This document shows positions 22,201 through 28,200 of a DNA stretch of 64,000 nt, in pieces (position 1 is the first letter of the stretch; each line of letters starts with the position of its first letter). The position numbers are program-made. The stretch lies in assembly GCF_054482525.1 (NCBI RefSeq), contig NZ_CM137006.1; one strand, written 5' to 3'.

Positions 22201-25200
22201 TTAAACGTAGTCGAGCGTTTGGCGTAATAAGGGCCCATACAGCAGCAATAACGCCCAATATGGTAAGTAGACTTGATGTATCAATTTTGGTTGGCGGTGT
22301 CATAATTTCTCTTGTAATCATTGTTTGATGTACATCGGAATGGTTTCAAATGATAAGGCTCTGTGTATGATAAATCAGAACGTTATGCACGTTTAAGAAT
22401 ACCCTCAAAATGGCACATTTTAATCTAAAAATGGCATTAAATGGACACTACTTGTCCACACAAGTTTTTTTTCAGTCGGCTTTTCCCGACTAACGTTTGG
22501 GGTGTCCTATTGAAACTACGCTCCTTATAAAAGCAATACTGTAGCTGTATGTTTATCAAAGGGGTTGTGCTAACCAAATTACTGAAGCCTAAGGTCCGCT
22601 CTTGGCACAAAGCAGACTATGAGAAGAGAGATGCTATAACATTTGAGTCCTACCAATCGATCTGTTCATTTCTATGAATGGCAGTAAATGCAAATAACCA
22701 GAACAACCAAACGTTTTTCGACTTATACTCGATGTTGCAAAGAGTGGGGTGTGAAAAGCAAGCGTGCGAACGGAAGTAGATGGCAATTCATTGCATTACT
22801 TCAGAAAAACTTTTTCAGGAAACGAGCTAAGGGCGTCAACCAATGCCCTGTAGCATAAGCTCAGGCACCGGATGCCGTTTTACAGGCTTCACCTGCCATC
22901 CAGAAGATGTCCCGACCAACGACTGCAACCATAATTACGTTGACCTGAACCGTCATGCAGCTTCGTTTCATTTTTCACGAGATAACGGGCTCTCTCCAGG
23001 GCTTTCTGCATCGCTTCCACATCACCACGCTTGATCCAGAGAACAGCGGCTTCACCCGGCTTTTTGTCTGAAGCCTTCCAGGTATCAGGACATCCACCCG
23101 ACAAAGGCGTGTCATCGGAAGAAGGGCGAGCATCAGACGATGCTGGTTTACGGGAAGGCGTCCACCTGGAAAAATGGACCAGGCCATCGCCTTGCCAGGG
23201 CTCAAGATGCAGGGCGCTGCACCATGCCTCCTGGATCATCGTCGCCAGCGAAGACGATTCGCTGAAATCCCCGATCGAGCACCAGGTATCTTTGTTGAGC
23301 AGTAATATCACGTGATAATGTTTCCTGCCTTTTTCCTTGCCGAACTCCCGACACCAGAAATAACGCAGGCTGGTTGCATGCACACGCTGATTGGCACATC
23401 TTTTTTTCCGCTGGTAAGCCTGGATTTTGGCTTTCAGGGATTCGAAAAAACGAGAAATCACCGCTGAATCTAAATCGGTATCCATGATGGTGGCAGGCAT
23501 ATACTCAGGAAACCGTAAATCCACCCGGATTAACGAGACGGCACGGTGCTGCGCCAGGGCACTGTCGAGAAGGCTGTCAAAACGGGATAACCAGTAAGCA
23601 TTGTGTATTGGTTGGTTCATGATGAGAGAACTCCGTTGATTTGGATTGACTTCACATCATTCATCACCGCGGTAAAACTTTACCGCATCCCGCTATTTAG
23701 CAACATAACCTGCTCCTGACTGCAGCGAAATAAACCATCCCGGAACGAAAAGAAGAGCCTGCACGCAGAGGGAAAACACGCAACAACATGAACGAATTTA
23801 AAAACAATACGGTTAAAGAGAAAAACCTGAAGGGAAACAAATCCACAGGACATTCAAACAAAACACCAAAAACGCAATCAGAACGCTTTCTGGCGCTGTA
23901 AATCAACAACAACACCAAAACCTACAGCTTAACCATATAACTCAATCACAAATGCGAAATGGCACGCTTAAAACCTGGTTACAGATATCCCGCCACAAGA
24001 ACAAAAACCACCAATATCAGAATCGATGTTCTTATCCTGAAAACGTTACGTTTCACTCCGCGCCATAAAAACGATTAACCATCGATAACGTAAACCTCAT
24101 CTGAATCAAAACACCAGAACCAATCATCACGTTTTTTCTGAAAAGAGTCTCATGATGAAGAGAATTACCTTGCGCTGATAAAAAACACCAGGGCCAGTTA
24201 ATCATCTCATCAATCTCATCGTTACAAAAACATCCATAAAACCATTTAACCAAATCGTCGTAAGCACACAGTAAATCACGCCAGGCCACCTCAATCGGAT
24301 TTGCGTTTTTACATAAAGACACTTGTTTCAGATTAACGATCTAAAACACGAAAACTCAGAAAAGGTTAAACGTAACTTCAGCAAAATAGAATGCCATCTT
24401 GATTGCTTAAACAGGAAAGATTGTTTTGTGGCAGCATTAAACTGATTTTAATTTTCGTAAACACAGGAGTAACAATTTTACCAAACTGGATGTGTATCAG
24501 ACAAAGCAATGTGTATTGTAATGTTTAATGAAAACACTTTTAGAAGTGTTTATGAAAATACGTGTATGTTTAGTAAAACACTTAGTAAAATACGTATATA
24601 GTACCATTCCCGACATTCTCAACATCTTCAGACATCCATGCAGACTGAGTGTTGATTTCAGTTTTTCACGGCCAGCATGGATCTTTACTGGTCAAAAAAC
24701 AGACATGTTTACTCTGGAATTATTTTTCTGATTCCGTCTTCAGAACAACAAAAACTCGTGATAACTCTACAACAAACTATCGTAATTGGCTTCTGTAACC
24801 CCGTCACTTTTCCTAAGAAACGTGCCCCCATATGATGCGGGAGAGATAAGTCATCGTATACAGGAAACACTGCCAATCATAATATGACGTCATTCAGTAA
24901 TTTTTATCCATAATCAGATTAGCATATCATGATTATTGAATATTATGATATATAACCCATATGAATATGTTATTATCTGTAAGCGTTAAGCATCACATTG
25001 CATAACCATACTAAGCTGGCTAATCATCAGCATTTTTTACATGTAAATCATTGAAATTAATTATATGTTTTTTGTGGATAATTAATATGTAATGTGAAAT
25101 TAATATTTTTACATCATGAGCGCCATTTAAAATCACCATCCTGAATATCATATGACAATATATTTTCACTAAAGCATGAATTGTATATGTCTATTAACTC

Positions 25201-28200
25201 TGGAAAATTATCAGGATTCACCTTCAAATTCACTTGAATGTTACGCTTAATTTCACCCAGCAGTTCTTCATGTGTGGATTTTATTATCCCTTTCTCATAA
25301 TCGATAAATACACACATGTTCTTTATGAATTCAAAACCTTTTCCTGTATACAGTTTAATGAATGCCACCAGAGCAAACATTTCAAGATATAGCCATAATG
25401 CCACGTTAGTTTTTTGCAAAGTATAAAAAATTGAATTCGCCACTCTTTTACTTATTGCTCTTCTATACTGTGATCGGGCAAGATTCAGTAGCGGAAGCTC
25501 TCGTTCAATAAATGAATGTGAAAAGACTGGATAAATTGATGTCGGAAACCTTTCAGGTCTTATGATATTTTCTATTTCCACCATAAATCTATCCATAGAA
25601 AGAAAGTCACTTTCTTTTTTTATTCTGGTATAGAGACCGCCTTTATTCCTTTCTGAGGTTTGTTTTCGTGCTATCCCCCCCAACACTTTCTCTAATTGTT
25701 TATTTATCTTCGTATAATTAAATACAACCATTCTTCTTATCATCCTCGGAAGGATAATAATATCAGTGCTTGAATCACTTGAGCGGCAATTATTATTTAT
25801 CCATGCAACTTCAAGTTGCAGTATCGGAACATTAACTTTTCTGGGGTGAATATCTCTCTGATATCGTTTTTTGTATGCGTTTTCATTAAGATATTCTCTG
25901 CTGTAGAGAAACTTATAGCAATATAATCTGATAATATCTTTTATGTAAAATTTAAATAGTTCACCTGTAACAGATATATGTTTTCTGCTCAGTAACTCCT
26001 GTGTATTAAGCCATTCCCGTGACCGAAGCACACCCTTGTGAGAACTTTTTCTTACTTGCTTTGAAGCACGCCATTGATGTAATATTTTTGTGTCCTCAAT
26101 AATTCTCTTTCCCGTTTTATTTTTTGCAGCATCTCTTACTCTATAAAATATCTCCCAGTCCAGACTTTTGTCATATCTACTAATTATACGACAAATATTC
26201 CTGACCCGACGATTCTCTTTATTTCGCTTCCATAGCTTATAATGATCATCGCATAACCTTAAGGCATTTGCCTCATCAAATTCTGAAACAGGATTACTGC
26301 ATTTTTTATTCCGACAGATACCTTTGTTTTTAGCCATACTCTTCTTCCCGTCAATGGAAAATTTTTCACACCCATATTACCTGAATGATAAACCGGATTA
26401 GTGTGATCCGGTTCAGCGAAATCAACAGGATAACGGTATGTCATTCAGCCATTTTTCCCTCTCCGCACAAGTGAAATCATATCTGACGTTTCTTCCTGAA
26501 GAAATTCGCCAGAAAATCCTTGAACATCTCCACGGTGTTATTCATTACGAGCCCGTGATTGGCATTATGGGTAAATCCGGCACCGGCAAAAGCAGCCTGT
26601 GTAATGCCATTTTTCAGTCCCGTATCTGCGCCACGCATCCCCTGAACGGCTGCACCCGCCAGGCTCATCGTCTTACCCTGCAGCTCGGTGAACGCAGAAT
26701 GACGCTGGTCGATCTGCCCGGCATTGGTGAAACACCGCAGCATGATCAGGAATACCAGGCGCTTTATCGTCAGTTACTGCCGGAACTGGATCTGATTATC
26801 TGGATCCTGCGGAGTGATGAACGTGCGTATGCTGCCGATATTGCCATGCATCAGTTTTTACTGAATGAGGGCGCAGATCCCTCGCGCTTTTTGTTTGTTC
26901 TCAGCCATGCCGATCGCATGTTTCCTGCTGAAGAATGGAATGCCACAGAAAAATGCCCGTCCCGTCACCAGGAACTCTCACTGGCGACAGTAACAGCCCG
27001 GGTGGCCACCCTGTTCCCTTCATCATTTCCGGTACTCCCTGTAGCCGCGCCTGCAGGCTGGAACCTTCCAGCGCTGGTGTCACTGATGATCCACGCGCTG
27101 CCACCACAGGCAACCAGCGCAGTTTATTCACATATCCGGGGGGAAAACCGCTCTGAACAGGCCCGGAAACACGCACAACAGACTTTTGGTGATGCCATCG
27201 GGAAAAGTTTTGACGACGCCGTTGCCCGGTTCAGTTTTCCGGCCTGGATGTTACAGCTTCTGCGTAAAGCCCGGGACCGCATTATCCACCTGCTGATCAC
27301 ACTGTGGGAGCGTCTGTTCTGACACACTCACGCCGACAGGATGTGTCGCTGGATTAACGAGCATTCTTCTTTTTATGAAATCCTGCTTAAAAATCAGATA
27401 ATTAAAAGAATATTTTTTCTGCTGCATTTTATTCCTGATTATCCGGATGCGACACATCCTTTCAACATCATGATGCATAATAACATCATGAAATAAAAGA
27501 TGTTTTCTTACGGAGTGCACATCTATGTCTGATAATCGTTCCCGGCATGATCGCCTGGCGGTTCGCTTATCACTCATTATCAGCCGACTGATGGCCGGAG
27601 AATCTCTGTCACTAAAAACACTGTCAGATGAATTTGGCGTTACAGAACGTACTTTACAGCGCGATTTTCATCAGCGTCTGGTTCACCTGGATTTAGAGTA
27701 CAGAAATGGCAGGTACAGCCTCAGACGACAGAGCAGCCCGGGTGCGATCCCTGAAATGCTTTCTTTTATACAGAATACCGGTATCGCACGGATACTTCCG
27801 CTCCGGAACGGACGACTGATAACCTGTCTTACCGACAACCAGGAGCCCTCTCCCTGCCTTATCTGGCTACCGGCGCCGGATATCACTGCAACGTTCCCCG
27901 AGTATTTCTCGCAACTCATCCTGGCAATAAGACAGTGTAACCACATCTCTCTGATGACTGAGCGATGGTATCCGTCACTGGAGCCCTGCCGGCTCATTTA
28001 TTACAGCGGTAGCTGGTATCTGATCGCGTTACAGAAGGGAAAACTGCAGGTCTTTCCTCTGGCAGATATCAAATCAGTCAGCCTGACATCAGAACGGTTT
28101 GAACGGAGAGGCCACATCCACAGTCTGGTCGCTGAAGAGCGTTTTATCTCCGCCCTGCCACATTTCTCTTTCATCCATAAACTTATCAACACCTTTAACC

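What the first reader, a model, noticed from the sequence alone, without database searches (positions are those of the whole stretch)
25114..26337. Orphan 407-aa low-GC protein with N-terminal Cys cluster, divergently adjacent to the island GTPase
A long, clean ORF in DNA markedly more AT-rich than its neighbours, with an N-terminal C-x4-C ... C-x2-H arrangement (zinc-ribbon-like) and a Lys/Arg/Asn/Tyr-rich body; I cannot assign it to any family. It sits in the part of the island that otherwise contains defence-type genes (dGTPase-like, antirestriction, WYL regulator, toxin-antitoxin), sharing a ~100-bp divergent promoter region with the GTPase gene. This is a reasonable candidate for an uncharacterised defence or abortive-infection factor.
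Basis: inference. Interest (0 to 1): 0.6.

Follow-up and report, generated by a model that had tools for sequence, protein, structure and literature searches.

The report
Dead-nuclease core gene of mobile island
The 407-aa ORF is a real gene from a small, undescribed Enterobacterales family (zinc finger, HNH nuclease domain with a dead active site, novel helical domain) that is a fixed but very variable part of the excision/replication module of tRNA-integrating islands carrying phage-defence cargo, so it is not a free-standing orphan defence gene.

Summary
ORF 25114..26337 (-) is intact, AT-rich (GC 0.34 against about 0.5 in its neighbours), basic (pI 9.8), and has a conserved C8-x4-C13...C29-x2-H32 motif. 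It lies 100 bp from a divergent GTPase gene.

It is not an orphan. It is 100% identical to WP_001107221.1 and is present in 975 of 5426 complete E. coli genomes. Relatives at 16-37% identity occur only in Enterobacterales islands.

No Pfam, NCBIfam, PADLOC, PHROG, PDB, AFDB or BFVD match was found outside the family itself. Distant members carry an intact HNH motif. The window protein keeps the predicted beta-beta-alpha element but has W179, D192 and R201 at the three motif positions.

The gene always sits beside the AlpA excisionase module. The GTPase adjacency is not universal. HNH-intact members never co-occur with an HUH rolling-circle endonuclease gene (5/5). HNH-dead members always do (10/10).

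In E. coli islands with 97%-identical flanks, the slot holds members only about 20-25% identical (types A, C, D). The swap is a precise cassette starting 24 nt before the ATG.

Best reading (0.35): a DNA-recognition subunit of the island's own DNA-processing machinery. A role in phage conflict (0.28) is not excluded.

The parts
25114..26337 (-). Gene X (407 aa, WP_001107221.1), type-A member of the zinc finger / HNH-derived / novel C-terminal domain family
   Evidence: ORF. 100% identical in UTI89, 536 and NU14. Family alignments. AF2 model with pLDDT 80.8 and pTM 0.69. dN/dS about 0.3.
26233..26322 (-). N-terminal CCCH zinc finger (residues 6-35: C8, C13, C29, H32; 'RLCxxHY')
   Evidence: C8, C13, C29 and H32 are invariant in A1 and at least 90% conserved in A2. 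The model shows a knuckle followed by a helix starting at residue 30. Metal binding is inferred.
25678..25827 (-). Degenerate HNH (beta-beta-alpha) element, residues 171-220, with W179, D192 and R201 in place of His, Asn and Asn
   Evidence: It aligns to 'LE(V/L)CHxYPNSxGGxNxxxNxxIAPxxINR' of clade B. All 8 PDB hits of the clade B motif profile are HNH nucleases. Pfam HNH_4 matches 8/14 clade B segments at E<=0.1. Strands 175-179 and 193-197 and helix 198-219 are predicted.
25117..25656 (-). Novel alpha-helical C-terminal domain (residues 228-407) with family-invariant R293, E319 and Y385 and near-invariant N386
   Evidence: Invariant columns. pLDDT is mostly above 85. No PDB, Pfam, AFDB or BFVD relative.
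26338..26437 (.). Divergent promoter region shared with the GTPase operon. It has a -10-like TAATAT (26374-26379, minus strand) and a perfect palindrome AACCGGAT-N7-ATCCGGTT (26391-26413) at the -35 position
   Evidence: GGTAATAT is conserved in the 4-locus alignment. Palindromes of different sequence occupy the same place in the window and in L004. The region stays 97% identical between islands that carry different X types, down to 26361/26362. Function is inferred.
24744..26361 (-). Exchangeable cassette: X with its 5' leader and 370 bp of AT-rich 3' flank
   Evidence: Homology to L013 and L014 (other cassette types) stops at 26361/26362 and resumes at 24726-24743. There is a terminator-like hairpin at 24825-24843. 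The 3' flank shows no iteron enrichment.
23621..24743 (.). Decayed spacer where related islands carry alpA. No alpA remains here, and there is a weak remnant of a second HUH-type gene at 23985-24244
   Evidence: tblastn with three AlpA proteins finds nothing. Gp2_L004 gives two HSPs at E 0.023. The spacer is 82-86% conserved among E. coli islands.
22889..23620 (-). HUH endonuclease gene ('inovirus Gp2 family', YagK/YfjJ type), with the HUH motif H-Y-H at 23312-23320
   Evidence: Annotation. Pfam PF11726 and PF23343 on the orthologues. Motif located. Present next to every HNH-dead X.
26438..27322 (+). YfjP/YeeP-type GTPase, first gene of the backbone operon (GTPase, WYL, DUF932, antirestriction, RadC, CbeA/CbtA)
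   Evidence: 53-68% identical between loci in which X is only 34-37% identical.
27525..28205 (+). HTH-WYL regulator (YfjR type), a candidate regulator of the divergent promoters
   Evidence: PADLOC WYL model at E 2.6e-18. It is directly divergent from X in L008, L010 and L011. The regulatory link is inferred.

Best explanation
X is a core component of the AlpA (excisionase/activator) early module of a P4/CP4-57-like, tRNA-integrating, satellite-like island. It is not cargo. Its ancestor was a zinc-finger HNH nuclease that cut or nicked DNA for the island's own processing (replication or mobilisation after excision). In the lineage that acquired an HUH rolling-circle endonuclease (the adjacent 'inovirus Gp2'/YfjJ-type gene), the HNH site decayed (W179, D192, R201). 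The protein persists as a basic, sequence-specific DNA-recognition or recruitment subunit, using the CCCH finger, the dead beta-beta-alpha scaffold and the conserved C-terminal domain. Because it sets specificity, it is exchanged between islands as a cassette, giving the very divergent types A, C and D. Shown: the family, the domain layout, loss of the catalytic residues, the synteny and the cassette boundaries. Inferred: DNA binding, cooperation with the HUH enzyme, and the role in replication or mobilisation.
For: 1) AlpA lies within one or two genes of X in all 14 loci outside the E. coli lineage. In L026 and L027 the two reading frames overlap.
2) In L028 the integrase is 94% and AlpA 73% identical to K-12 CP4-57, and X sits exactly where CP4-57 has yfjI (DUF3987 primase/helicase) and yfjJ (HUH).
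3) X is next to a DUF3987 gene in L025 and L027.
4) The distributions are complementary. HNH-intact X has no HUH gene within 10 kb in 5/5 loci. HNH-dead X has an HUH gene within 2 kb in 10/10 loci.
5) The HNH ancestry is supported and by both structure models.
6) The N-terminal 225 residues are strongly basic: K+R 52 against D+E 23.
7) In type D, X lacks the zinc finger and is paired with a protein carrying a C-terminal ribbon-helix-helix tail (NF010256, E 7e-5). This suggests DNA binding is needed and can be supplied in trans.
8) X is absent from 50,697 phage genomes and effectively absent from plasmids.
9) dN/dS is about 0.3, the same as the HUH gene at 0.21-0.46.
10) Bell et al. 2025 (PMC12458937, section 11) independently describe this island class as integrase, excisionase, HUH endonuclease and a RadC/ArdB/CbtA module, with defence or fec cargo.
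Against: No repeated (iteron-like) sequence is enriched in the cassette's 3' flank in any of 7 loci, so no cognate site has been found. The HNH/HUH complementarity may reflect only one or two evolutionary events, because the clades are not independent and the sample is small. In the E. coli lineage alpA is lost and no integrase lies in the 64-kb window, yet X stays intact, which fits a function independent of mobility. K-12 CP4-57 has no family member at all, so the protein is not essential to the island class. The conserved C-terminal domain has invariant polar residues of unknown role, which could be an unrelated activity.
Confidence: 0.35

Rival explanations
1. X is a phage-conflict factor of the island: an anti-phage or helper-interference protein. 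HNH-intact forms would cut invading or helper DNA. HNH-dead forms would act as DNA or protein sensors or blockers.
For: Members only about 20-25% identical occupy one slot between flanks that are 97% and 82-86% identical, under the same promoter. This pattern is typical of arms-race loci. All members are AT-rich, with GC 0.28-0.41. X evolves faster than the backbone: 34-37% identity against 53-75%. A WYL regulator of the kind that often controls defence operons is adjacent or directly divergent. X is retained intact in E. coli islands that have lost alpA. The islands carry defence cargo such as type I RM, TIR, McrBC, Gabija-like and Hachiman systems.
Against: No PADLOC model matches at E<=1 for type A, or at E<=0.1 for types C and D. 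Defence hotspots usually hold unrelated systems, whereas here the slot always holds the same family. The tight, sometimes overlapping, coupling to alpA across genera is unusual for cargo. The dead-HNH forms have no recognisable effector. The defence-rich neighbourhood is explained by the island carrying cargo elsewhere.
Confidence: 0.28
2. X is a transcription regulator or switch of the island. It would bind DNA through the zinc finger (or through the ribbon-helix-helix partner in type D), and its variable body would sense a signal such as a helper-phage protein, by analogy with the divergent Stl repressors of SaPIs.
For: X is the first gene after a conserved promoter that carries a palindrome at -35. 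It has a basic DNA-binding-like N-terminal half. The zinc finger is conserved while the body is variable. Type D replaces the finger with a partner carrying a repressor-type ribbon-helix-helix. X is co-transcribed with the activator AlpA in other genera.
Against: The promoter and palindrome region does not co-vary with the X type; it stays 97% identical across types A, C and D. The palindrome is more simply assigned to the co-evolving WYL-HTH protein. At about 400 aa with an ex-nuclease core, X is atypical for a repressor. Clade B keeps an apparently active nuclease site.
Confidence: 0.2
3. X is a decaying relic, or a selfish homing-type HNH gene, with no present function in this island.
For: The catalytic residues are lost. 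alpA next to it has been deleted. Some copies are frameshifted (L015) or carry IS insertions.
Against: dN/dS is about 0.3 over dS up to 0.21. The ORF is intact in at least 967 genomes. Residues are invariant across members only 16-20% identical. The models are confident. The position is fixed rather than scattered as for homing genes.
Confidence: 0.07

Closest known systems
HNH (His-Me finger, beta-beta-alpha-Me) endonucleases, closest to Pfam HNH_4 / Cas9-IscB-McrA type
   Same: Clade B relatives carry 'LExCHxYPNSxGGxNxxxNxxIAPxxINR'. This aligns to the McrA, Cas8f-HNH and Cas9 catalytic motifs, to HNH_4, and to the Cas9d and IscB HNH segments. The window protein keeps the predicted beta-beta-alpha element and an associated zinc finger.
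   Different: In the window protein the general-base His is W179, the structural Asn is D192 and the metal-ligand Asn is R201. No HNH model matches it, even at E=10. About 180 residues form an unrelated, novel C-terminal domain.
Replication module of P4 / CP4-57-type elements (alpA followed by the DUF3987 primase-helicase YfjI and the HUH protein YfjJ)
   Same: X occupies the same position directly after or before alpA. In L028 it occupies exactly the yfjI-yfjJ slot, beside a 94%-identical integrase. It is adjacent to DUF3987 genes in L025 and L027.
   Different: There is no sequence or fold similarity to DUF3987 or HUH proteins. No origin-like repeats were found. K-12 CP4-57 has no family member.
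Integrase-excisionase-HUH islands with a RadC/ArdB/CbtA module and defence or fec cargo (Bell et al. 2025, PMC12458937); Pseudomonas IntY-AlpA-Gp2-like islands moved by a jumbo phage (PMC12595487)
   Same: The window island has the same backbone: an HUH 'inovirus Gp2' gene, the GTPase/WYL/DUF932/antirestriction/RadC/CbeA-CbtA operon, fec cargo and a truncated dGTPase.
   Different: The passages of those papers that were read do not mention this protein family. Here alpA and the integrase are missing from the window, so this copy is probably immobile.
Stl master repressors of SaPIs and rep-ori specificity modules of phage satellites (comparison from background knowledge, not tested here)
   Same: Very divergent alleles sit at one fixed position of otherwise similar islands, next to the excision/replication genes.
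   Different: In X-bearing islands the promoter region does not co-vary with the allele. There is no HTH domain and no shown link to a helper phage.
Lactococcal-type abortive-infection (Abi) proteins and PADLOC defence families
   Same: A single AT-rich, Lys/Asn/Tyr-rich gene in a mobile element with defence cargo.
   Different: No PADLOC, Pfam or PHROG match. No HEPN-type Rx4-6H motif is conserved in the family (read from the alignment). The gene is bound to the alpA module rather than to the cargo region.

Membership tests
HNH endonuclease superfamily | Catalytic His at the end of strand beta-1 | tested here: not met
   The window protein has W179 where clade B has the invariant His. Other clade A members have W, F, Y or K.
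HNH endonuclease superfamily | Conserved Asn before beta-2 and a metal-ligand Asn/His in the helix | tested here: not met
   D192 and R201 align to the invariant N28 and N37 of the clade B motif.
HNH endonuclease superfamily | Beta-beta-alpha fold | tested here: inconclusive
HNH endonuclease superfamily | Match to a family profile | tested here: not met
   The window protein has no Pfam hit at E<=10. Relatives do: HNH_4 matches 8/14 at E<=0.1, best 2.3e-4, and all 8 PDB profile hits are HNH nucleases. Homology is therefore by descent, not current membership as an enzyme.
Known anti-phage defence systems (PADLOC-DB 2.0) | Match to any system protein model | tested here: not met
   0 families at E<=1 for X. 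0 families at E<=0.1 for the type C and D proteins and the type D partners.
Known anti-phage defence systems | Protects cells against phage | not testable with these tools
   This needs expression and phage challenge.
Defence-hotspot cargo | Slot filled by unrelated systems in related elements; gene not linked to backbone genes | tested here: not met
   All 9 E. coli islands examined carry a member of the same family. AlpA linkage holds in 14/14 other loci.
Reverse transcriptase (UniProt name of the K. michiganensis homologue) | RT palm motifs or a match to an RVT profile | tested here: not met
   No RVT family appeared in the Pfam scan of all 32 members. No YxDD motif is visible in the sequence.
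Zinc finger (treble-clef-like CCCH) | Four conserved metal ligands: a knuckle plus the start of a helix | tested here: met
   C8, C13, C29 and H32 are at least 90% conserved. The helix starts at residue 30. Metal binding itself was not testable.
Core module of AlpA-bearing P4/CP4-57-like islands | Conserved adjacency to alpA across divergent islands | tested here: met
   Adjacency holds in 14/14 loci outside the E. coli lineage. It is not met in the window itself, where alpA is deleted.

The most novel reading that the evidence does not exclude
The family is the identity or specificity determinant of a satellite-like island class. It would be a hypervariable zinc-finger/ex-nuclease protein that recognises particular phage (helper or enemy) DNA or proteins and either triggers the island or blocks the phage. 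Under this reading, types A, C and D in about a third of E. coli genomes are alleles of a new kind of phage-sensing or interference factor, and the conserved R293/E319/Y385/N386 site is a new activity.
Probability: 0.25. Interest if true: 0.75.

Novelty: new variant of a known kind. Interest (0 to 1): 0.5.

Why it matters
These islands move defence systems, iron uptake and virulence genes among Enterobacterales, yet how they replicate and spread is unknown. This family is a fixed part of their excision/replication module. It occurs as three very divergent types in about 2,000 of 5,426 complete E. coli genomes. It has no characterised relative and a C-terminal domain with no match in any library searched. 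The link between loss of the HNH site and presence of an HUH endonuclease gives a concrete, testable idea of how the islands process their DNA. The precise cassette exchange marks a specificity or conflict interface worth testing in phage-island experiments.

Tried and rejected
Library searches of X against Pfam, NCBIfam, PADLOC and PHROGs found nothing. The only hits were two PHROGs of unknown function at E about 0.1.

A PDB sequence search gave one chance hit at E=1. A PDB search with the full-family profile gave only eIF2B-beta at E about 1.

The 'Reverse transcriptase' label on a homologue has no supporting motif or profile match.

The idea of a replication origin in the 3' flank was tested. 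There are no tandem repeats, and no k-mer is enriched over dinucleotide shuffles in 7 loci.

A search for an ncRNA in the unannotated 1.5 kb found only a sub-threshold c4-a1b1 match elsewhere in the region (E 0.38).

No alpA remnant was found in the window. K-12 CP4-57 has no homologue. Phage and plasmid collections gave no matches, apart from one partial hit in a Klebsiella record.

A functional GTPase partnership was rejected, because the adjacency is missing in 5 loci.

The search for related loci with the 32-sequence alignment failed for lack of a conserved stretch. With the 10-sequence alignment it found only 3 loci in 100,044 species genomes.
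Full report
OBSERVATION. The ORF at 25114..26337 (minus strand) runs from ATG to a stop over 407 codons. Its GC content is 0.338 (GC3 0.29). The flanking GTPase, WYL and HUH genes have GC 0.50-0.54. With this composition a stop-free run of 407 codons has a chance of about 3e-16. The protein is basic (pI 9.8; 77 K+R against 46 D+E) and rich in I, K, R, N and Y. The motif C8-x4-C13...C29-x2-H32 is present. The gap to the divergent GTPase gene (26438..27322) is exactly 100 bp.

NOT AN ORPHAN. The DNA is 100% identical to a 'hypothetical protein' gene (WP_001107221.1) in UTI89, 536, NU14 and many other strains. 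It is found in 975 of 5426 complete E. coli genomes, almost always once and on the chromosome. A word-indexed search of 5.8 billion proteins found 16 relatives. Full-length ones at 34-37% identity come from Citrobacter, Klebsiella michiganensis and metagenomes. An exhaustive profile search of 1.84 billion cluster representatives found only 43. All AFDB50 fold neighbours whose organism is given are family members from Enterobacterales: Escherichia, Klebsiella, Salmonella, Serratia, Enterobacter, Providencia, Lelliottia and Kosakonia. A scan of one genome per species (100,044 species) found 3 loci. E. coli alleles differ with dN/dS of about 0.3 at dS up to 0.21. This is a real gene under purifying selection.

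The 32-sequence alignment shows three parts.
- A CCCH zinc finger, at least 90% conserved.
- A middle region that in the most distant clade (clade B) reads 'LE(V/L)CHxYPNSxGGxNxxxNxxIAPxxINR'.
- A helical C-terminal domain with invariant R293, E319 and Y385 and near-invariant N386.

A profile of the clade B motif hits eight PDB sequences at E 0.09-1.1, and all eight are HNH nucleases: McrA, Cas8f-HNH, HNH-domain proteins and Cas9. Pfam HNH_4 matches 8 of 14 segments at E<=0.1, with a best value of 2.3e-4. NCBIfam aligns the same segment to the HNH parts of Cas9d and IscB. Each hit is weak on its own, but they all agree, so the family descends from HNH nucleases.

In the window protein the three motif positions are W179, D192 and R201. 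The predicted strand-strand-helix element is kept: residues 175-179, 193-197 and 198-219. It matches the element over the intact motif in a clade B model with pLDDT 85.4. The window protein is therefore a catalytically dead HNH derivative. The C-terminal domain has no relative in the PDB or Pfam, even as a separate profile.

WHERE IT SITS. In Klebsiella, Citrobacter, Atlantibacter and metagenomic islands the order is GTPase, then (divergently) X, then alpA, then an HUH gene ('inovirus Gp2', YagK/YfjJ), then cargo. In L008, L010 and L011 the divergent neighbour is the WYL regulator and there is no GTPase.

In clade B the order is alpA followed by X on the same strand.
- In L007 and L024 X is followed by GTPase and WYL.
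- In L025 and L027 X is next to a DUF3987 primase-helicase.
- In L026 and L027 the alpA and X reading frames overlap.
- In L028 the integrase is 94% and AlpA 73% identical to K-12 CP4-57, and X sits where CP4-57 has yfjI and yfjJ.

AlpA is therefore the constant neighbour, in 14 of 14 loci outside the E. coli lineage, and the GTPase is not. The family is absent from 50,697 phage genomes and effectively absent from plasmids. This island class was recently described as integrase, excisionase, HUH endonuclease and a RadC/ArdB/CbtA module, carrying defence or fec cargo and possibly satellite-like (PMC12458937). Similar Pseudomonas islands are moved by a jumbo phage (PMC12595487). The window island carries fec and a truncated dGTPase.

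TWO PATTERNS THAT BEAR ON FUNCTION.

First pattern. HNH-intact members have no HUH gene within 10 kb in 5 of 5 loci. HNH-dead members (types A, C, D) have one within 2 kb in 10 of 10 loci. The HUH motif H-Y-H is visible in the window gene at 23312-23320. This suggests the HNH activity and the HUH enzyme do the same job, and that the HNH site decayed once an HUH enzyme was present. The clades are not independent samples, so this may reflect very few evolutionary events.

Second pattern. E. coli islands are 97% identical on the GTPase side and 82-86% identical on the HUH side, yet the slot holds members that share only about 20-25% identity.
- Type A is the 407-aa protein in the window.
- Type C is 376 aa (L013).
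- Type D is a 310-320 aa form without the zinc finger, paired with a convergent 262-284 aa protein. That partner's C-terminus matches the ribbon-helix-helix repressor RepA2/CopB.

Homology breaks at 26361/26362, which is 24 nt before the ATG and after the -10-like box. It resumes at 24726-24743. The unit exchanged is therefore X with 370 bp of 3' flank, while the promoter is shared. Types A, C and D occur in 975, 463 and about 742 complete genomes. X is AT-rich in every locus (GC 0.28-0.41) and diverges faster than the backbone: 34-37% identity against 53-75%.

INTERPRETATION. The AlpA linkage, the occupation of the CP4-57 replication slot, the neighbouring primase-helicase genes, the HNH/HUH complementarity, the basic N-terminal half and the trans-supplied DNA-binding tail in type D all point one way. 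X most likely works in the island's own DNA processing, now as a DNA-recognition or recruitment subunit rather than a nuclease (confidence 0.35).

Several facts weigh against this. No repeated site was found in the cassette flank. alpA is deleted in the E. coli lineage and no integrase lies in the window, yet X is maintained. The HUH gene is maintained under similar constraint (dN/dS 0.21-0.46).

The cassette hypervariability, the AT-richness and the WYL neighbour keep a phage-conflict role alive (0.28). A regulator or switch role (0.20) is weakened because the promoter and palindrome do not co-vary with the X type. A functionless relic is unlikely (0.07).

VERDICT. The protein belongs to an undescribed family that descends from HNH nucleases and is a core, exchangeable part of a newly recognised island class. 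That makes it a new variant of a known kind, of moderate interest.

Noticed in passing
window 26391-26413 (and L004 about 9929-9951): A perfect palindrome AACCGGAT-N7-ATCCGGTT sits at the -35 position of the X promoter. L004 has a different perfect 8-bp-arm palindrome (ATCCTGGC-GTTGACA-GCCAGGAT) at the same place. This looks like an operator that co-evolves with a regulator, perhaps the WYL-HTH protein.
   Followed up: partly
window 23621-24743: alpA, which follows X in other genera, is missing here. The spacer has no ORF but is 82-86% conserved among E. coli islands. It holds a weak remnant of a second HUH-type gene at 23985-24244 (E 0.023).
   Followed up: partly
L014 2569-4304; L017 1492-3230; L018 1569-3382: In type D cassettes, an X-family protein without the zinc finger is paired with a convergent partner that overlaps it by 4 bp. 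The partner's C-terminus resembles the ribbon-helix-helix repressor RepA2/CopB (E 7e-5). Partners are only 26% identical between subtypes.
   Followed up: partly
window 20159-21106 and 21132-21858: A dGTPase-family gene is cut by IS1 after residue 316 of 410 (99.7% identical to the intact EcPF5 copy). It matches the NCBIfam 'anti-phage dGTPase' model at E 3e-70, below the curated cut-off. In EcPF5 an 8-kb segment with H-NS-family, ProQ/FinO-like and YagK/YfjJ genes lies here instead.
   Followed up: partly
L024 12741-13901; L007 8181-9323: Clade B islands carry an AT-rich (GC 0.33) protein of 380-386 aa, divergent from alpA, with no match in Pfam or PHROGs. It is 75% identical between the two loci.
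   Followed up: partly
window 45212-60246: This stretch holds two large autotransporters (1309 and 1284 aa), an AraC-type regulator in DNA of GC 0.30-0.34, and a chaperone-usher fimbrial cluster. It lies between lysS and dcuS and is absent from the otherwise similar EcPF5 region.
   Followed up: no
window about 10146-17173: The ferric-citrate (fec) operon lies inside the same island, next to IS1 and IS3 copies (17983-20008). This agrees with fec being reported as cargo of this island class.
   Followed up: no
window 28248-29030: A 260-aa backbone ORF between the WYL and DUF905/DUF932 genes has no NCBIfam match at E<=1e-5. The related UTI89 locus has a 'hypothetical protein' gene at this position.
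   Followed up: no
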